A stretch of DNA of 64,000 nt from a plasmid. The stretch lies in the sequence record NZ_CP071296.1. One strand, given 5' to 3'. Within the stretch, counting starts at the first letter, position 1; each line of letters starts with the position of its first letter. Positions 9,001-18,000 of the stretch are shown here, piece after piece. Position numbers: made by a program.

Positions 9001-12000
9001 CGGCAATATGTTTTCTGTCCTCAATGGACTCTGGAACACCAGTAGGATTACCGACCGGAAAATCTACGATAACGCCTCCTGTGATTATAATCCCCGCGCC
9101 ACCTTTGGCACGTTCAAGATAATAGGTTATAATGTTTTCACTCATGGAGCCGTCAGGGTTGGCTAAGTTTGTGTCCATAGGCGACATTACGATGCGATTT
9201 TTAACACGTTTTCCCCGAAGATAGTCTTCTGTAAATAGATGCGAGTATTTCGTCATAATTTTATCTCTCCTTCCATACTTATGCGTTCAATTAACTTTGA
9301 TAAAAATTTATCAATGCAAATAGTCTATCAGTATAAATAAAATTTGTATATCGTAATACTGCTAAATCTGTTGTTTTACTGCTAAAATTTATTTAGTTAA
9401 TCATTGTTAATCATTAGGTTTCAATAATTTTTTAACAGTGTTCTGATGTACATATTAGGTAAGAAAGCATAAAAAAACCGATTTATTCAATGTCATTTAG
9501 CCTGGCAATCACATTTTCAACATGTTATCTGCATCTTTAAACTGATGGAAGTACTCCTTCATCACCGTTTTGTTTCTTTAGAAGAGAGATTAGTTTCCGT
9601 TTCCTGCTGTTTCACTCTATTTCCTACTGTTTTTTCTTCGATATCCTCAGCCTGATGCTGACTTTTCTCTTTTACCTGTTCATACTCCCTTACTATCTCT
9701 GTATAAAGCTTTTCACGAAATTCCTTGGTAACTGGATAACAAACATCCTGATACATCGGTTTTCCTTGCTCATCTATCTGCTTCGTTTTATAAGCCGGCA
9801 TCGAAACAAAAATATTTTCCTTTCCCTGAAGAATGTTTACATTATTTACAATAAAACTTTCCTCAATATAGATTCTGGCAAGTCCCTTGATGTTACTTCC
9901 ATCTCTTTCATATGGAGATACCGTAACTGAAAATTCTGGCATCTCTACAACACTCTTCATCCCTTTACCACTGTCTTGTACCTGCTCTGGTGCAAGTGAT
10001 CGTTCATATGCTTCAAGAATATTTGTATAAAGTTCTTCACGAAATTCTGCCGTGATTGGATTACAGACATCCTTATAGATGGTTGCACCACTCTCGTCTT
10101 TTTCACTAGATTTATATCTAGGCATGGATACAAAAAGTTGATCTTTATCTGCGTTCTCAAGGATTGCGATATTGGTAATCTTAAAACTGTCTCCAAATAC
10201 CACAGTTGCAAATCCTTTGATATTGCTTCCTTCTTTTCTATTAATGCTGTTCACCTTAATTGAATATTTGGTTCTGTTGCAAAGTTTTAAATCTACTATC
10301 AAATAAGGTAGAATAATAGAAAAAGATAGCAGGAGGAATGAAGATGAATCATTTTAAAGGAAAGCAATTTCAGCAGGATGTGATTATTGTAGCCGTGGGC
10401 TACTATCTTCGTTATAACCTTAGCTATCGTGAAGTTCAAGAAATCTTATATGATCGTGGCATTAACGTTTCTCATACGACGATTTATCGTTGGGTGCAAG
10501 AATATGGCAAACTACTCTATCAAATTTGGAAAAAGAAAAATAAAAAATCCTTTTATTCCTGGAAAATGGATGAAACGTACATCAAAATTAAAGGAAAATG
10601 GCATTATTTGTATCGAGCCATCGATGCAGATGGTTTAACCTTGGATATTTGGTTACGTAAAAAACGGGACACACAAGCAGCCTATGCTTTTCTTAAGCGG
10701 TTAGTGAAGCAGTTTGATGAACCGAAGGTTGTAGTCACAGATAAAGCCCCCTCTATTACAAGTGCCTTTAAGAAACTAAAAGAATACGGCTTTTATCAAG
10801 GGACAGAACATCGTACCATTAAATACCTGAATAATTTGATTGAACAAGACCATCGTCCAGTAAAGAGACGCAATAAATTCTATCGAAGTTTACGCACTGC
10901 CTCACCCACGATTAAAGGTATGGAAGCCATCCGAGGATTATATAAGAAAACCCGAAAAGAAGGCACTCTCTTCGGGTTTTCGGTCTGTACTGAAATCAAG
11001 GTATTATTGGGAATCCCAGCTTAAATCATAGATACCGTAAGGGATTTTATTCTTTATTTAAAACTTTGCAACAGAACCGGATAATCAATAGTATTATATA
11101 AAAGTATCAATCACATACGAGTGATACTTTGGGAAAAAAATAAAATAGTCCAATTTACTTGACCGTGTACTATGGTACACGGTTTATAATATTCATGGGG
11201 TGAAATAAGATGATTTATCGCATTAGTGAGTTTGCAGATAAATGTGGAGTTAATAAAGAAACGATCAGATATTACGAGCGAAAAAATTTATTACAAGAAC
11301 CTCACCGAACGGAAGCTGGTTATCGGATATATTCATATGATGACGTTAAGCGTGTTGGGTTTATTAAACGAATACAGGAACTTGGTTTTTCTTTAAGCGA
11401 GATTTATAAATTACTTGGTGTTGTAGATAAAGATGAAGTTCGTTGTCAAGATATGTTCGAATTTATTTCTAAAAAACAAAAGGAAGCGCAAAAACAAATA
11501 GAGGATTTAAAACGAATTGAAATGATATACATCTTTCCGAAAAAGTTTGCTTTTTCTCAAAGCATGGCTATAAATAATTGTTGGTCCATTCTTAAGGTCG
11601 ATAACACTTTTCAATACCGACCCTAATACTGACCCTAATACTGACCTTGATACCGACCCTAATACTGACCCTAATACCGACCTCAATACTGAACAAAAAA
11701 AGCCACCTGATTTCAGTGGCCCAATTAATATATTTAAAATCTTTATAAAGGAGGATTCCTCAGATGTATCTGGTTGAGCGAATATCAAGCTTTCTGATTG
11801 GCTCGTGGTATATAACGAGTTGGTCATTGAGTTTCAACCTAGTTTGATACATTTGATTGGAGCATAATTTAATTTCATATTCTCAAAAGATGAGAAAAAT
11901 TTATATTATCCCAAAAATTTCGTAATACTATCTGCAACATTTTGAATTTGTTCAGGAATGTTTTCGGTTATACCTCCTGCAACATTTTGAATCTGTTCGG

Positions 12001-15000: not shown

Positions 15001-18000
15001 TCATGTCTGTGTTCAAGCACAACATATTGAACCTGATAAGATAACGGATGAATTAATTAGACTTAAAAAACTTAAGCAAAATTCTATATTAATTCTGGAA
15101 ACTTACGAAAATCCGTACAACTTTTCAACGCCACATCTGGAATTAAGGATATTATTAAATTAATTGGCAGTTATCTAAAAATACAATACTAGATATGTAT
15201 CTAGTATTGTATTTTTTAATTTGGGAGTAGGAATACTACATTTTCTGGGCTAATATTTGTTCTAACATTTCCCCAAGGAAATGTCCCACCATATCCAGCT
15301 TCTTGAACGTTAAATGTTCCATCTGGGTTCACCCCAGTTACTACTGCCACATGACCATATGGTGAGGTTCGAGCTGTAGTAGACGTTCCATATCCTGTAA
15401 AATGGTCAGTAAATCCTGAAGCAATAACTCCTGGAGCCAAATTTGTTCGACGCAAGACTCCTTGACTCACACCATTTGTTCCCCAATAACCTCCATTACC
15501 ATTTACTATGTTTGCTATATATATTCCTTTAGCGGCAAAGTACTGCCAAACAAAATCGGTACAGCCTCCGCCTGCATAAGGATGGTTCTGTTGCAAAGTT
15601 CCCCATAACACCTGATTTATTGTAAAATGTAATAAAAAAGAATGCGAGGACAATAGATGAATCATTTTAAGGGCAAACAATTCCAAAAAGACGTGATTAT
15701 TATCTCTGTTGGGTATTATCTTCGCTATAATTTGAGTTATCGTGATGTTCAAGAGATGTTATATGATCGTGGCATTAACGTTTCTCACACAACAATTTAC
15801 CGTTGGGTTCAAGAATATGGTAAGCTGATCTATCAAATCTGGAAAAAGAAAAATAGACAGTCCTTTTATTCGTGGAAAATGGACGAAACTTATATTAAAA
15901 TTAAAGGGAAGTGGCATTATCTCTATCGTGCAATCGACTCAGAAGGCATGACACTGGATATTTGGCTAAGACGAAAGAGAAATACTCAGTCTGCTTATGC
16001 TTTCTTTAAACGACTATACAAGCAGTTTGGGGAACCGAAAGTTATCGTGACAGATAAAGCACCATCAATTGCTAGTGCTTTTAGGAAGTTACAAAAGCAG
16101 GGGCTATACAGCGAAACTGAGCACCGGACAGTCAAGTATCTCAATAACTTAATTGAGCAAGATCATAGACCTGTTAAACGTCGAAATAAACTTTATCAAA
16201 GTCTTCGTACTGCATCAACTACGATTAAGGGCATAGAAGCATTGAGAGGCATATACAAAAAGAACCGAAGAAATGGAACGCTCTTCGGCTTTTCGGCATC
16301 TACTGAAATTAAAGTTTTGATGGGTATACCAGCATAGTCAAAGTATCAGAATGGGACTTTTGTACTCAGTATTGAAACTTTGCAACAGAACCCATTTTTG
16401 CGTTTGACTTGTAAGAACAGGATTGAATGAAGCCATACTGTTCGCATATTTTTAGTGGATGAACAAACAAAATACGAGAGATTTTTTGTTCGTTTATCCA
16501 TGGTTTTAGAAAAAAGAGGGACGATTTCGGAAGAAGAAAATCGTCTCTTTTTTTCTTCTTTTTGTATGACAAAAAGAAAGATCTTTTGCCCATTTTATAA
16601 AAATAAAATGGGTAGGTGGCGTTTGCGTAAAGCAAATCGACACAATCCAAAGGGAATAAAAGGGGAAAGTGAAACTTCCCCCTTTTCAAGCCACATTGTA
16701 ATATAAGAACGAAGTGCTTTGTATTACAATGTGATAGCTTGCAGTATTTATGGTTTTATATAGTCTATTTTGTTATAATGATTGTAACCGAATAGGGCGC
16801 AATGCTTATTACAAAATCAATGACAAAGGGCGATTGAGGAATGAGCGCTGGGGCATTTTATCTTTGAGGAGGCTATTTATGGATCAGAAAGAAGTATCAC
16901 AAAATCAAACAAAGTACATTCAATTTAGATTATCTGAAGAACAATACAATAAGCTGAAAATTTCAGGAGAAACATATGGACTCTCTCCGAATCTTTATGC
17001 GAAAAAATTAGCACAAAAATCTCATTTAAAAAAACCTTATCTCGAACATGACCAAGCGAAATCTTTATTATTAGAACTCTCAAAACAAGGAACCAATTTA
17101 AATCAAATCGCCAAGAAACTCAATCAATTCGATCGGATGGACAACCAAGATAAAGAGCTGATCGAGGCTTTACGCTATACATACGGAGTACTCGCTCAAG
17201 CTCAAAAAGGGTATCAAGAGTTATGGCAACAATTGCAAAAATAAGCAATGGCGCAAGTGCAGCGAGCGCCCTTAATTATGCTTTAGGTCAAGACAGACCT
17301 ATGCATGAAAAAACTGAACAGTGGCTACAAGACCATCAATTGGAACGTCCTGTGGAGCTGACAAATTGTCGGGCAGTTGCCGTGGGTGGAACCAACGGGA
17401 TTGATCCCTTTATCGCCAAAGAACAATTTGATGTCATTCGACAACTTCATAACCAAACCAAAGAATCCAATCAAGTCTTGCGTATTACCCAATCTTTCGC
17501 CTTGGATGAACTGAATCCGAAAGTTCAAAAAGACTGGCAAAAAGCCAATGATTTAGGCGTTGAATTAGCAGAAAATCTCTATCCTAACCATCAAAGTGCT
17601 GTGTATACGCATTTAGACGGAAAAAATCACGTCTTACACAACCACATCATTGTCAATAAGGTCAATTTAGAGACAGGAAAGAAATTAAGAGAACAAAAAG
17701 GAGAAAGCGTTCAACGAGCACGAGAAATGAATGATCGACTCGCTTCTCGAGAAAACTGGCACATTTTAGAGCCACCAAAAGAGCGCCAAACAGAGACAGA
17801 AAAAGAACTAATCGCCAAAAATGAGTATTCCTACATGGATGATTTGAGAGAAAGAATCAATAAATCGCTTCAAGATGTCTCTGTGAGCTCATATGAGACG
17901 TTTAAAGAGCGCTTATCCGATAATGGTGTAATTCTATCAGAAAGAGGCCAAACGTTCTCATACGCCTTTTTAGACGCCAATAACAAGCAAAGACGAGCAC

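What the first reader, a model, noticed from the sequence alone, without database searches (positions are those of the whole stretch)
11210..15163. P1B-4 ATPase translationally coupled to a 9 x 14-aa acidic tandem-repeat protein, bracketed by two MerR regulators
The SPC/HEGST-type heavy-metal ATPase (12389..14293), which lacks an N-terminal metal-binding domain, ends TAA directly abutting the ATG (…TAAATG…) of a 160-aa ORF. That ORF consists almost entirely of ITENIPEQIQNVAGG repeats encoded by near-identical 42-bp DNA units, indicating a recent expansion or VNTR. The repeat protein has no Cys, His or Met, so it is not an obvious metallochaperone. It is acidic (Glu-rich), Gln/Asn-rich and Pro-containing, and probably disordered. 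A metal-sensor-like MerR (Cys79 and a C-terminal Cys) lies convergent downstream. A second MerR with a large effector domain lies divergent upstream, with an ACCTT-N6-AAGGT dyad in the shared promoter. I do not know of a repeat protein of this kind associated with a P1B ATPase.
Basis: seen in the sequence. Interest (0 to 1): 0.7.

Follow-up and report, generated by a model that had tools for sequence, protein, structure and literature searches.

The report
Repeat-expanded small protein beside metal pump
A mobile metal-export gene set on plasmids of lactic acid bacteria has, directly after the pump gene, a tiny acidic protein gene whose 15-amino-acid core is repeated in tandem about 1 to 13 times in different strains; the feature is real and not described in the papers searched, but its function is unknown.

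Summary
The core observation holds, with corrections. The repeat unit is 45 bp (15 aa), present nine times. It lies in a 160-aa ORF (11906-12388, minus strand) that starts directly after the stop codon of an SPC/HEGST P1B-4 ATPase and has its own Shine-Dalgarno site.

The array is a true coding minisatellite. In complete plasmid records the same ORF has 5, 6, 7, 8 or 13 units. Some relatives carry a 40-41-aa single-unit form. Differences between units are mostly synonymous in this frame.

The small protein is an orphan. It has no family, no transmembrane segment and no Cys or His. Its net charge is about -19, and its amphipathic periodicity is 3.75 residues per turn.

The downstream "MerR" is a truncated remnant of a mercury operon and is not a regulator of this pump. 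The upstream MerR is BmrR-type, with a GyrI-like effector domain. It sits on a conserved promoter with a 19-bp spacer, and its subfamily carries an invariant His/Glu cluster and pairs with metal exporters across Streptococcaceae.

Chromosomal relatives of the pump and regulator lack the small ORF, so it is a lineage-restricted accessory.

Best guess, with low confidence: an acidic helical accessory, scaffold or metal-buffering partner of the pump. The closest analogues are S. mutans ZccE/ZccR and the mycobacterial PacL proteins.

The parts
10338..11024 (+). IS6-family transposase gene at the left boundary of the module
   Evidence: 228-aa ORF. IS1216/ISS1-type IS6 elements flank the same module in related plasmids.
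11159..11190 (+). Operator/promoter of the mer operon remnant: TTGACC, a 19-20-nt spacer holding the dyad ACCGTGTAC..GTACACGGT, then TATAAT
   Evidence: Read directly from the sequence. The region is 99% identical to Enterococcus mer loci.
11210..11626 (+). 3'-truncated Hg(II)-MerR gene. Residues 1-104 are genuine (to about 11522); the rest is a read-through tail of unrelated sequence.
   Evidence: Homology to Enterococcus merR stops at query position 423, which is about window 11522. TIGR02051 covers only positions 1-101 of 124. Alignment with intact E. faecium MerR shows loss of the Cys114/Cys123 region, and merA is absent.
11613..11692 (.). Second VNTR: a 12-bp unit (AATACTGACCCT), 6.7 copies here
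   Evidence: Tandem Repeats Finder. Copy number differs in L. piscium and L. hircilactis. Similar repeats also follow a terminator in L005. Function unknown.
11700..11722 (-). Terminator-like hairpin with a T-run, the candidate end of the ATPase/small-ORF transcript
   Evidence: Terminator scan. The sequence GGGCCACTGAAATCAGGTGGC followed by T7 is visible.
11906..12388 (-). Small acidic repeat-protein ORF, 160 aa. Head is 12332-12388, nine 45-bp units are 11927-12331, tail is 11909-11926, stop is 11906-11908.
   Evidence: The ORF is conserved downstream of the ATPase in 13 plasmids, 14 of 15 metagenome hits and draft genomes.
12397..12403 (-). Shine-Dalgarno site GAAGGAG for the small ORF, inside the 3' end of the ATPase gene
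   Evidence: It is conserved as GAAGGAG or GAAGGG in all loci.
12389..14293 (-). P1B-4-type heavy-metal P-type ATPase, 634 aa, with SPC and HEGST motifs and no N-terminal metal-binding domain
   Evidence: The best solved relative is the P1B-4 pump 7qbz (E = 7e-94). The motifs are conserved in relatives of 62-77% identity; the 53%-identical relative L027 keeps SPC but has HEGSS.
14344..14374 (-). MerR-type promoter/operator of the ATPase operon: -35 TTGACC (14374-14369), a 19-nt spacer holding ACCTT-N6-AAGGT (14371-14356), and -10 TATAAT (14349-14344)
   Evidence: The same architecture is conserved in six divergent loci, including one that drives a CDF exporter.
14384..15163 (+). BmrR-type MerR activator, 259 aa: MerR helix-turn-helix, a long coiled coil, and a GyrI-like effector domain with subfamily-invariant S146, H214, E239, E242, H251 and E253
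   Evidence: Pfam. A profile of the family matches BmrR in the PDB end to end, E = 2.5e-28. The AlphaFold2 model has pLDDT 93, and its top Foldseek hits are BmrR structures.
15216..15752 (-). Truncated CHAP-domain (PcsB/Usp45-like) gene remnant, cut by the right-hand IS6 element
   Evidence: Pfam CHAP hit. The full-length 430-aa gene occupies this position in L001 and L005.
15657..16337 (+). IS6-family transposase gene at the right boundary, in the same orientation as the left copy
   Evidence: 226-aa ORF.

Best explanation
SHOWN. The region is an IS6-bounded mobile metal-efflux module. A BmrR-type MerR activator (14384-15163) sits divergently on a promoter with a 19-bp spacer. That promoter drives a two-gene operon: a P1B-4 ATPase, then a small cytoplasmic acidic protein with its own ribosome-binding site. 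The small gene exists as a 40-41-aa form with one 15-aa core unit and as forms with more units. Complete plasmid records carry 5, 6, 7, 8 or 13 units, and this window carries 9. Unit maps such as AEABBD, AEABD and AEAEABD show gain and loss of whole 45-bp units. That pattern fits slipped-strand mispairing or unequal recombination, so the array is a coding minisatellite. Variation between units is mostly synonymous in this frame, so the protein sequence is under constraint. The downstream merR is a dead remnant of a mercury operon that hitch-hikes with the module.

INFERRED. The unit length of 15 residues equals four turns at 3.75 residues per turn. Each added unit therefore extends one continuous amphipathic, Glu/Gln/Asn-faced helix or coiled coil in register, which would explain why expansion is tolerated. 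The most likely role is accessory to the pump. The protein could be an acidic scaffold or stabiliser, or a low-affinity, high-capacity carboxylate buffer for divalent cations such as Zn, Co or Fe(II), with capacity or length set by copy number. It would act like the Glu/Ala-repeat PacL partners of mycobacterial P1B ATPases, not like a Cys/His metallochaperone. The pump and regulator are probably a Zn/Co/Cd-type efflux system like ZccE/ZccR.
For: Anatomy:
- ORFs, TAA-ATG abutment and SD site.
- No promoter-like or terminator-like site between the two genes; a terminator-like hairpin lies about 180 nt after the small ORF.

Conservation and copy number:
- 13 PLSDB plasmids from Lactococcus, Leuconostoc and Lactiplantibacillus carry the ATPase plus the ORF.
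- Product lengths are 100, 115, 130, 145, 160 and 220 aa, which fit 25 + 15n.
- The identical 6-unit map AEABBD occurs in four independent plasmid records and one metagenome contig. Two L. garvieae records both carry 13 units, differing at two units.

Single-unit alleles:
- P0133 lies on a 43.5-kb contig that has the whole module at 96% nucleotide identity.
- P0151 occurs in four assemblies.

Coding evidence:
- Internal-unit polymorphisms are 5 synonymous to 2 non-synonymous in this frame, against 0-4 synonymous in the other five frames. The binomial P is about 0.008-0.013.
- Metagenome units add three more synonymous and two more non-synonymous variants.
- pN/pS of the collapsed ORF is 0.34-0.76, below 1 in all five comparisons.

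Physical character:
- No Cys or His; net charge about -19.
- The hydrophobic moment peaks at 96 degrees and stays coherent over all 160 residues (0.48). Only 1.5% of shuffled units reach the observed value.
- AlphaFold2 gives an all-helix model at low confidence.

Regulator:
- Searches identify the BmrR fold.
- The operator is conserved in six loci.
- In 24 of 24 members of the close subfamily (39% identity or more), H214, E242 and H251 are invariant. Of the nine contexts examined for that subfamily, eight show a divergent SPC-motif P1B ATPase and one a CDF exporter.
- The 30%-identical relatives lack these residues, and the two whose contexts were examined lack exporter neighbours.

Precedents:
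- PacL Glu/Ala-repeat partners of P1B ATPases (PMC13460109).
- ZccE/ZccR: an SPC-motif pump without a metal-binding domain, plus a divergent 264-aa MerR activator, conferring Zn/Cd/Co/Cu tolerance (PMC9387928).
- A related ATPase (68% identity) in an L. garvieae contig is followed at the same position by a His-rich 83-aa repeat ORF.
Against: - The functional part is untested.
- The small ORF is absent downstream of the chromosomal pump/regulator pairs in L. piscium, S. dysgalactiae, S. parauberis, S. cuniculipharyngis and the 75%-identity lineage. The pump therefore does not need it.
- Its pN is 5-12 times that of the ATPase, and pN/pS reaches 0.76 in one pair. Constraint is weak outside the core.
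- It has no Cys, His or Met ligands and no basic residues that would bind membrane.
- It has no detectable homologue or family. The Pfam, NCBIfam, PDB and 1.84-billion-protein HMMER hits are repeat-driven artefacts.
- A Pro and a Gly-Gly in every unit argue against one continuous helix, and the AlphaFold2 model is unreliable (pLDDT 63.6).
- Curing pLG42, whose ORF has 13 units, changed no metal MIC. However, only Co and Hg were within the measurable range (PMC4420470).
- In several L. lactis plasmids an IS982 sits in the 5' UTR and uncouples the operon from its promoter.
- Copy numbers from short-read assemblies may be under-estimates. Some single-unit alleles equal the 5' part of the first unit joined to the 3' part of the last unit of known arrays, so they may be contractions.
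Confidence: 0.55

Rival explanations
1. The array is a neutral or nearly neutral minisatellite inside a dispensable, fast-evolving small ORF. The peptide may be translated because it lies behind a good ribosome-binding site, but it has no role in metal export. Copy number drifts by slippage because a 45-bp unit never breaks the reading frame.
For: - The ORF is restricted to one shallow lineage and absent from chromosomal relatives.
- pN is 5-12 times that of the ATPase, and pN/pS reaches 0.76.
- Two antisense frames are also open across the array.
- Curing pLG42 gave no phenotype (PMC4420470).
- IS982 uncouples the operon in dairy plasmids, yet the ORF persists.
- A second, apparently non-coding 12-bp VNTR lies 200 bp away, so the region is prone to slippage.
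Against: - Unit polymorphisms are biased towards synonymous changes in this frame only (5 to 2, then 8 to 4 with metagenome units).
- The core TENIPEQIQN is invariant in every allele, including the most divergent.
- The SD site and ATG are conserved in all loci.
- The substitutions seen are mostly conservative: E/D, N/Q, I/L, F/Y.
- The same arrays are inherited unchanged across different plasmids and species.
Confidence: 0.3
2. The product is a stand-alone stress protein of the hydrophilin or LEA/apolipoprotein-like amphipathic-repeat type. It would protect membranes or proteins during acid, cold, drying or osmotic stress in food environments, and it merely shares a transcript with the pump.
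For: - Weak, sub-threshold resemblance to ApoLp-III, the only repeat-driven hit with separate matched stretches.
- A 15-aa-period protein found by HMMER (P0099) weakly hits the apolipoprotein, YtxH and perilipin families.
- The amphipathic periodicity is strong.
- The hosts are dairy, meat and kimchi bacteria.
Against: - No match reaches any family's threshold.
- The repeats have no basic residues, so binding to anionic membranes is unlikely.
- The gene was never found away from this ATPase: all 13 plasmid matches and 14 of 15 metagenome hits are ATPase-linked, and the fifteenth is an unrelated ORF.
Confidence: 0.1
3. The repeats are not a protein feature at all. The real gene is the plus-strand antisense ORF (11942-12364), or the array is a DNA-level element such as iterons or a partition site, or the nine copies are an assembly artefact.
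For: - The antisense frame is open.
- Near-identical repeats are hard to assemble, and short-read contigs break or shrink here.
Against: - The antisense frame shows 1 synonymous to 6 non-synonymous unit changes. It starts at TTG without a ribosome-binding site. It cannot exist in single-unit alleles.
- No replication or partition gene lies next to the array, which sits inside an IS6-bounded module and is a single unit in relatives.
- Arrays are reproducible across independent complete plasmid assemblies, including a published plasmid sequence.
- The interspersed unit subtypes in this window (ABBBCABBD) are related to those of pLG42.
Confidence: 0.03

Closest known systems
ZccE/ZccR of Streptococcus mutans (PMC9387928)
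   Same: A P1B ATPase with an SPC motif and no N-terminal GxxCxxC domain. It is divergently transcribed from a MerR-type activator of about 260 aa (795-bp gene) that binds the intergenic region. The system confers Zn, Cd, Co and Cu tolerance. This is the closest characterised architecture to the pump and regulator here.
   Different: That paper reports ZccE as unique to S. mutans and does not mention a downstream small ORF. Here the module is plasmid-borne and IS6-flanked, and it carries the repeat ORF.
PacL proteins (DUF1490) with CtpC/CtpG/CtpV, the mycobacterial 'effluxosomes' (PMC13460109)
   Same: Small proteins encoded in the same operon as a P1B ATPase. They have an acidic (Glu/Ala) repeat region needed to bind and stabilise the pump, and an optional metal-binding motif. 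They provide a precedent for an acidic-repeat accessory that is not a classical chaperone.
   Different: PacL proteins have a transmembrane segment, are encoded upstream of the pump, and bind the pump's N-terminal metal-binding domain, which is absent here. There is no DUF1490 match. The repeat here is a 15-aa Glu/Gln/Asn/Ile unit, not EA repeats, and its copy number varies.
BmrR (B. subtilis) and EcmrR, the multidrug-binding MerR regulators
   Same: The 259-aa regulator matches BmrR end to end by profile (E = 2.5e-28) and by predicted fold. Its promoter has the 19-bp spacer typical of MerR regulators.
   Different: Its partner genes are metal exporters (an SPC-motif P1B ATPase, or a CDF protein in S. 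suis), not drug pumps. The subfamily has an invariant His214/Glu242/His251 set, plus Glu239 and Glu253, that more distant relatives lack. This suggests that a metal, not a lipophilic cation, is the effector.
CoaR-CoaT of Synechocystis (PMC7689651)
   Same: A MerR-family activator with a large non-canonical C-terminal effector domain controls a P1B-4 ATPase through a promoter with sub-optimal spacing.
   Different: The CoaR effector domain is precorrin-isomerase-like with a Cys-His-Cys motif; the domain here is GyrI-like. CoaT has no associated repeat protein.
PmtA, PfeT and FrvA, the Fe(II)/Co(II) P1B-4 pumps of Firmicutes (PMC7012047)
   Same: The same SPC (TM4) and HEGST (TM6) signature, and no metal-binding domain.
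   Different: Those pumps are controlled by or linked to PerR or Fur; in S. suis, perR lies 162 bp upstream of pmtA. The clade here is always paired with the BmrR-type MerR, so it is a separate paralogous group.
Gram-positive mer operon regulator MerR (intact copy in E. faecium pE1_29)
   Same: Residues 1-104 of the 11210 ORF are about 98% identical to it, including the helix-turn-helix and Cys79, and the mer operator/promoter is kept.
   Different: The copy here is truncated before Cys114 and Cys123, is fused to unrelated sequence, and has no merA.

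Membership tests
P1B-4 heavy-metal P-type ATPase | SPC motif in TM4 | tested here: met
   The sequence VSASPCALAV is in the translation. SPC is kept in relatives of 53-77% identity. The motif definition is taken from PMC7012047 and PMC7689651.
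P1B-4 heavy-metal P-type ATPase | HEG(S/G)T motif in TM6 | tested here: met
   HEGST is present in the sequence LHEGSTLVV.
P1B-4 heavy-metal P-type ATPase | No N-terminal heavy-metal-binding (HMA/CxxC) domain | tested here: met
   Pfam finds only the E1-E2_ATPase and Hydrolase domains. The first 75 residues are two hydrophobic helices. The best solved relative is the P1B-4 pump 7qbz.
P1B-4 heavy-metal P-type ATPase | Transports Co/Fe(II)/Zn/Cd-type divalent cations | not testable with these tools
   The only indirect data are from curing pLG42, which left the Co and Hg MICs unchanged. The other metals were above the assay range in both strains (PMC4420470).
Hg(II)-responsive MerR (ORF 11210-11626) | N-terminal MerR helix-turn-helix, dimerisation helix and Cys79 | tested here: met
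   Pfam MerR_1 and MerR-DNA-bind hits. TIGR02051 scores 151.3 bits. Cys79 is present.
Hg(II)-responsive MerR (ORF 11210-11626) | C-terminal metal loop with the two further Hg ligands (Cys114, Cys123) | tested here: not met
   The alignment with intact E. faecium MerR diverges after residue 104. The profile is covered only at positions 1-101 of 124.
Hg(II)-responsive MerR (ORF 11210-11626) | Heads a mer operon (merA downstream) | tested here: not met
   merA follows merR in E. faecium. In the window, homology ends at about 11522 and the next features are a 12-bp VNTR and the convergent small ORF.
BmrR-type (GyrI-like) MerR activator (ORF 14384-15163) | MerR helix-turn-helix, a long coiled coil and a C-terminal GyrI-like ligand domain | tested here: met
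   The family profile matches BmrR over positions 3-257 (BmrR 2-274), E = 2.5e-28. The AlphaFold2 model has pLDDT 93.2. Its top seven Foldseek hits are BmrR structures, and isolated GyrI-like domains (EcmrR C-terminal domain, SbmC/GyrI, Rob) are also hit.
BmrR-type (GyrI-like) MerR activator (ORF 14384-15163) | Acts on a promoter with an over-long (19-20 bp) spacer containing a dyad | tested here: met
   TTGACC, 19 nt, TATAAT with ACCTT-N6-AAGGT. This is conserved in L005, L024, L025, L047, L048 and L049. Binding itself was not tested.
BmrR-type (GyrI-like) MerR activator (ORF 14384-15163) | The effector is a lipophilic cation or drug | not testable with these tools
   The gene partners (an SPC-motif P1B ATPase or a CDF exporter) and the subfamily-specific His/Glu cluster point to a metal instead. 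This is an inference only.
PacL / DUF1490 P-ATPase-associated chaperone-like proteins | DUF1490 domain with a single transmembrane segment | tested here: not met
   No DUF1490 hit at E up to 0.1 for the 160-aa form or up to 10 for the 40-41-aa forms. The sequence has no hydrophobic stretch long enough to span a membrane.
PacL / DUF1490 P-ATPase-associated chaperone-like proteins | Acidic repeat region and co-operonic with a P1B ATPase | tested here: inconclusive
   It is co-operonic (downstream, 0-14 nt gap) and acidic and repetitive. The repeats are not Glu/Ala repeats, and the pump lacks the metal-binding domain that PacL binds (PMC13460109).
CopZ/Atx1-type metallochaperone | Ferredoxin-like HMA fold with CxxC | tested here: not met
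   No Cys in the protein and no HMA hit.
Coding minisatellite / VNTR | Head-to-tail near-identical units whose length is a multiple of three, within an ORF | tested here: met
   The period is 45 bp, with 8.9 copies at 96% identity. Nine units lie in register.
Coding minisatellite / VNTR | Copy number differs among otherwise near-identical loci | tested here: met
   Complete plasmid records have 5, 6, 7, 8 or 13 units, and the window has 9. The unit maps are related by gain or loss of whole units. The 1-4-unit forms come mainly from short-read assemblies and are less certain.
ZccE/ZccR-type Zn/Co/Cd efflux module | SPC-motif pump without a metal-binding domain, plus a divergent MerR activator of about 260 aa | tested here: met
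   Architecture only: searches compared with PMC9387928.
ZccE/ZccR-type Zn/Co/Cd efflux module | Sequence homology to ZccE and ZccR | not tested
   No S. mutans sequence could be fetched.

The most novel reading that the evidence does not exclude
The 40-220-aa acidic protein would be a new kind of soluble partner for P1B-4 pumps, which have no metal-binding domain and no known chaperone. It would form an extensible pentadecad-repeat helix whose Glu/Gln/Asn face buffers or presents divalent cations, or scaffolds the pump. Its length, and therefore its capacity, would be tuned in populations by minisatellite slippage. It would be switched on by a BmrR-fold MerR that senses metal through a His/Glu site in the former drug pocket.
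Probability: 0.15. Interest if true: 0.75.

Novelty: new variant of a known kind. Interest (0 to 1): 0.5.

Why it matters
P1B-4 pumps (PfeT, PmtA, CoaT and ZccE-like) have no metal-binding domain and no known delivery or accessory protein. A co-transcribed acidic protein whose length changes in 15-residue steps would offer a natural dosage series for testing whether such pumps use soluble partners. It would also be a rare bacterial case of a coding minisatellite outside surface proteins.

Separately, the regulator family found here has a BmrR fold and an invariant His/Glu cluster, and in the contexts examined it lies next to an SPC-motif P1B ATPase or a CDF exporter. That gives a testable candidate for how a 'multidrug' MerR scaffold was converted into a metal sensor. 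It also suggests that ZccE/ZccR-like systems may be more widespread than reported.

In practical terms, the module travels on IS6-flanked units in food-chain Lactococcus, Leuconostoc and Lactiplantibacillus plasmids. In this window it sits next to an optrA/erm(A) resistance region, which raises the question of metal co-selection.

Tried and rejected
1. The word-indexed protein search with the full 160-aa ORF found nothing.
2. The exhaustive HMMER search gave 826 hits, but every long hit inspected was an unrelated repeat protein: mucin-like proteins, phage tail or tape-measure proteins, and low-complexity proteins. Only the fragments P0016 and P0029 and the 41-aa P0133 were true relatives.
3. 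Pfam and NCBIfam hits to the repeat ORF (LNYV_PP_C, UbiK, ApoLp-III and others) are inflated by the repeats. Most have no separate matched stretch or fall below the curated cut-offs, so they were rejected. The single-unit forms match nothing in Pfam or the PDB.
4. AlphaFold2 on the repeat protein alone gave pLDDT 63.6 and pTM 0.29, so it was used only as a weak hint of helicity. No fold search was run on it.
5. The tblastn hits in Clostridium perfringens and Salmonella plasmids (25-27% identity) were judged to be repeat-driven and were not followed up.
6. Rfam found nothing credible in 11000-15400, so no NiCo/czcD riboswitch or other RNA element is present.
7. The idea that this ATPase is PmtA was rejected, because pmtA is linked to perR and not to a MerR gene.
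8. The iteron or partition-site reading was rejected on context.
9. The 106-aa minus-strand ORF across the 12-bp VNTR (11507-11827) was considered and left as doubtful. It has a weak ribosome-binding site and runs through the terminator hairpin.
10. Single-unit alleles were first taken as clearly ancestral. This was downgraded after the metagenome unit maps showed that the L and O alleles equal the 5' part of the first unit plus the 3' part of the last unit of known arrays.
11. MerR homologues at about 30% identity were checked and are not next to metal exporters. The exporter link therefore holds only for the subfamily at 39% identity or more.

Full report
**1. What is in the sequence**

ORF listing and direct reading confirm a 634-aa P-type ATPase on the minus strand (12389-14293). 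It is followed without a gap by a 160-aa ORF (11906-12388). The junction reads GAAGGAGAGCTATAAATG, so the ATPase stop TAA abuts the ATG and a GAAGGAG Shine-Dalgarno site lies 8 nt upstream.

Tandem Repeats Finder reports a 45-bp period at 11932-12332, with 8.9 copies, 96% matches and a score of 732. A unit-specific pattern hits nine times, spaced exactly 45 bp apart. Shuffled sequence gives 0 hits, and there are no hits elsewhere in the 64-kb window. The unit is therefore 15 aa (ITENIPEQIQNVAGG), not the 14 aa and 42 bp in the finding's title.

The product has no Cys or His and only the initiator Met. It contains 20 Glu and 1 Asp against 2 Lys, giving a net charge of about -19 and a pI of about 4.

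**2. The pump**

The ATPase has SPC in TM4 and HEGST in TM6. Pfam finds only the E1-E2 ATPase and HAD domains, so there is no N-terminal metal-binding domain. Its best solved relative is the P1B-4 pump 7qbz (E = 7e-94). SPC and HEG(S/G)T are the published P1B-4 signature (PMC7012047, PMC7689651). The P1B-4 assignment stands.

**3. The downstream 'MerR' is a remnant**

Megablast shows that window 11100 to about 11522 is 97-99% identical to enterococcal mer loci annotated as Hg(II)-responsive merR, and that the homology stops there. The MerR equivalog model is covered only at positions 1-101 of 124.

The intact E. faecium protein (130 aa, followed by merA) continues with ...QRCP...HSCP..., the Cys114/Cys123 loop. 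The window ORF diverges after residue 104 into unrelated sequence.

The same broken junction occurs in L. piscium and L. hircilactis. The fragment therefore hitch-hikes with the module and is not a sensor for it.

**4. The upstream MerR is BmrR-type and belongs to the pump**

A profile built from 38 homologues matches BmrR end to end in the PDB (E = 2.5e-28). The AlphaFold2 model is confident (pLDDT 93.2). Its top Foldseek hits are BmrR structures, and isolated GyrI-like domains are also hit.

The ATPase promoter is TTGACC, a 19-nt spacer, then TATAAT, with the ACCTT-N6-AAGGT dyad inside (14344-14374). The same architecture is conserved in loci whose ATPases are only 62-68% identical, and in further Streptococcus loci.

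Homologues of the regulator at 39% identity or more were examined in nine contexts.
- In eight contexts they lie divergently next to an SPC-motif P1B ATPase: the L005 contig, the 75%-identity lineage, L. garvieae, the L. piscium chromosome, S. dysgalactiae, S. parauberis and S. cuniculipharyngis. Those checked carry HEGST, except S. dysgalactiae, which has HEGSS.
- In one S. suis context the partner is a CDF (Cation_efflux) exporter with the same operator.

In all 24 members of this subfamily, S146, H214, E239, E242, H251 and E253 are invariant. In the relatives at about 30% identity, H214, E242 and H251 are replaced by L/I, T/S and R/K/L. The two of these whose contexts were examined have no exporter neighbours.

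I infer that this is a metal-sensing derivative of the BmrR scaffold. That the residues cluster in space was not checked.

The closest characterised system by architecture is S. mutans ZccE/ZccR. It has an SPC-motif pump without a metal-binding domain and a divergent 264-aa MerR activator, and it confers Zn, Cd, Co and Cu tolerance (PMC9387928). Sequence homology could not be tested here. PmtA-type pumps are linked to perR instead (PMC7012047), so this is a separate clade.

**5. The repeat ORF is a conserved, variable coding minisatellite**

Thirteen PLSDB plasmids carry the ORF, always directly after this ATPase. The hosts are L. garvieae, L. lactis, L. piscium, Lactococcus sp., Leuconostoc lactis and Lactiplantibacillus plantarum.

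Product lengths follow 25 + 15n:

| Length | Units | Records |
|---|---|---|
| 100 aa | 5 | pUCCL631A |
| 115 aa | 6 | six records |
| 130 aa | 7 | pLG50, L. plantarum |
| 145 aa | 8 | LG606, pIBB-JZK |
| 160 aa | 9 | this window |
| 220 aa | 13 | pLG42, FDAARGOS_893 |

Coding the unit subtypes by letter gives maps such as AEABBD (four plasmid records plus one metagenome contig), AEABD, AEAEABD, ABBBCABBD (this window) and AEBBCEBCCABBD. These maps are related by gain or loss of whole units. That pattern fits slippage or unequal recombination.

The pLG42 paper lists this gene as orf27, 220 aa, mis-named 'ring-infected erythrocyte surface antigen', and does not comment on it (PMC4420470). No other paper in the library mentions it.

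**6. Single-unit forms**

The exhaustive HMMER search found a 41-aa protein, MFKNIFQNLTGQAQDILGQITENIPEQIQNISDNFTKYLGL. It is encoded on a 43.5-kb contig. That contig carries an intact CHAP/PcsB gene, the 259-aa MerR, the ATPase (96% amino-acid identity), this ORF and a terminator. The module is 96% identical at the nucleotide level.

A second single-unit allele of 40 aa occurs in four assemblies. A metagenome scan with a degenerate MFKNIFQN pattern gave 15 loci. Fourteen are the ATPase plus this ORF, with 1-6 units.

Two caveats apply.
- Short-read assemblies can under-count identical units.
- Two of the single-unit alleles equal the 5' part of the first unit joined to the 3' part of the last unit of known arrays, so they could be contraction products.

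The most divergent lineage (L005) is single-unit, which makes one unit the likelier ancestral state, but this is not proven. Within arrays the 3'-most junctions read ITDS, VADS or VAGD, and the internal ones read VAGG. This graded series is consistent with duplication followed by divergence of the linker.

**7. Is it translated and constrained?**

Among internal units there are five synonymous third-position polymorphic sites and two non-synonymous ones in the minus-strand frame. The other five frames show 0-4 synonymous changes. The binomial P is 0.008-0.013. Metagenome units add three more synonymous and two more non-synonymous variants.

After collapsing the arrays to one unit, pN/pS is 0.34-0.76 in five comparisons, against 0.09-0.12 for the ATPase. 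The SD site, the ATG and the core TENIPEQIQN are invariant everywhere.

The minus-strand ORF is the coding frame. It is under purifying selection that is real but weaker than on the pump.

**8. What kind of protein is it?**

No family or solved structure matches. All apparent hits are repeat artefacts. The protein has no signal peptide and no transmembrane segment.

Hydrophobic residues fall at unit positions 1, 5, 9 and 12-13, a 4-4-3-4 spacing. The hydrophobic moment peaks at 96 degrees (3.75 residues per turn) and stays coherent over all 160 residues (0.48, against 0.07 at 100 degrees). Only 1.5% of shuffled units do as well.

Fifteen residues therefore equal four turns, so added units keep one continuous hydrophobic stripe opposite a Glu3/Glu7/Asn/Gln face. 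The AlphaFold2 model is all-helical but unreliable (pLDDT 63.6). The Pro6 and Gly14-Gly15 in every unit argue for breaks in the helix. The structure remains open.

**9. Function**

The following is shown:
- co-location with the pump, and near-certain co-transcription with it;
- control by a conserved MerR-type promoter;
- restriction to one mobile lineage.

Chromosomal pump/regulator pairs lack any small ORF downstream. One L. garvieae relative carries a different small repeat ORF at that position, which is His-rich (MGHHNKQ...HERTKHG...).

From the PacL precedent (PMC13460109) and this His-rich positional analogue, I infer that the product is an accessory of the pump. It could be a scaffold or stabiliser, or a carboxylate-based buffer for divalent cations, with capacity set by unit number.

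The points against this reading are:
- the ORF is dispensable in relatives;
- it evolves fast;
- it has no classical ligand residues;
- curing pLG42 changed no MIC, although only Co and Hg were within the measurable range (PMC4420470);
- IS982 insertions in the 5' UTR uncouple the operon in several dairy plasmids.

A neutral minisatellite in a dispensable ORF is the main rival.

**10. Context**

The module (11025-15656) lies between two IS6 transposase genes in the same orientation. The window is a mosaic Lactococcus-type plasmid. Positions of about 270-10300 match enterococcal and L. garvieae optrA/erm(A) regions.

**11. Verdict**

- The pump and regulator are a new member of a known kind, ZccE/ZccR-like.
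- The regulator subfamily's His/Glu signature and the repeat-expanded small ORF were not described in the papers searched.
- The function of the ORF is unproven.

Interest is moderate (0.5). It would be higher if the accessory role holds.

Noticed in passing
window 14384-15163, and loci L005, L021, L024, L025, L027, L047, L048, L049: The BmrR-type MerR belongs to a Streptococcaceae subfamily (24 sequences at 39% identity or more) with invariant S146, H214, E239, E242, H251 and E253. In every context examined it is paired divergently with an SPC-motif P1B ATPase or, in S. suis, with a CDF exporter, over the same 19-bp-spacer operator. Relatives at about 30% identity lack H214, E242 and H251, and the two whose contexts were examined have no exporter neighbour. 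This is a candidate metal-sensing variant of the multidrug-binding fold and may be the ZccR family.
   Followed up: partly
L024:2716-2967 (-), L. garvieae GCA_044988845.1 contig: A related ATPase (68% identity, with the same MerR and operator) is followed at the same position by a different small repetitive ORF. It is 83 aa and His/Asp/Lys-rich (MGHHNKQMVDKRYRDDFTNDRHERTKHGGDKHHRNDFTNDHHERTKHG...), with its own ribosome-binding site and no Pfam match. It looks like a metal-binding peptide.
   Followed up: partly
window 11613-11692: A second VNTR with a 12-bp unit (AATACTGACCCT) lies just beyond the operon terminator. Its length differs in L. piscium (about 96 bp longer) and L. hircilactis (shorter). 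A similar arrangement of a terminator followed by 12-bp repeats occurs about 500 bp downstream of the small ORF in L005 (6613-6660). A 106-aa minus-strand ORF (11507-11827) runs through it but looks doubtful.
   Followed up: partly
L016, L017, L018 and L020 (L. lactis and Lactococcus sp. dairy plasmids); the equivalent position is window ~14311-14319: An IS982 element is inserted in the 5' UTR of the ATPase, between the -10 box and the ribosome-binding site, with the target duplication AATGATATA. It separates the operon from its MerR-dependent promoter. In pLLN8-2 the MerR gene is also lost.
   Followed up: partly
window ~270-10300 (ORFs 1551-2282 and 3699-5666, among others): The region next to the left IS6 element matches enterococcal and L. 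garvieae plasmid segments annotated as optrA (an ABC-F protein conferring oxazolidinone/phenicol resistance) and erm(A) at about 97-98% identity. The metal module therefore sits beside an antibiotic-resistance island on a mosaic plasmid.
   Followed up: no
window 10338-11024 and 15657-16337: Two IS6-family transposase genes (228 and 226 aa, both on the plus strand) bracket the merR remnant, the small ORF, the ATPase, the MerR gene and the truncated CHAP gene. This arrangement looks like an IS6 translocatable unit. The right-hand copy truncates the CHAP/PcsB-like gene (15216-15752).
   Followed up: no
window 12389-12410 compared with L002-L006: A 1-nt length difference in an A-run near the 3' end of the ATPase gene changes its C-terminus. 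It is ...NKKDIEGEL (634 aa, with the stop abutting the small ORF's ATG) in one lineage and ...NKKI (629 aa, with a 14-nt gap) in the other. Stop-start abutment is therefore not a conserved feature.
   Followed up: yes
window 9562-10302 (-): A 246-aa ORF appears to be a tandem duplication of a SpoVG-like domain; the motif ...GSNIKG(F/L)A...FVSMP.YK... occurs twice. The SpoVG resemblance is from memory and was not checked with any tool.
   Followed up: no
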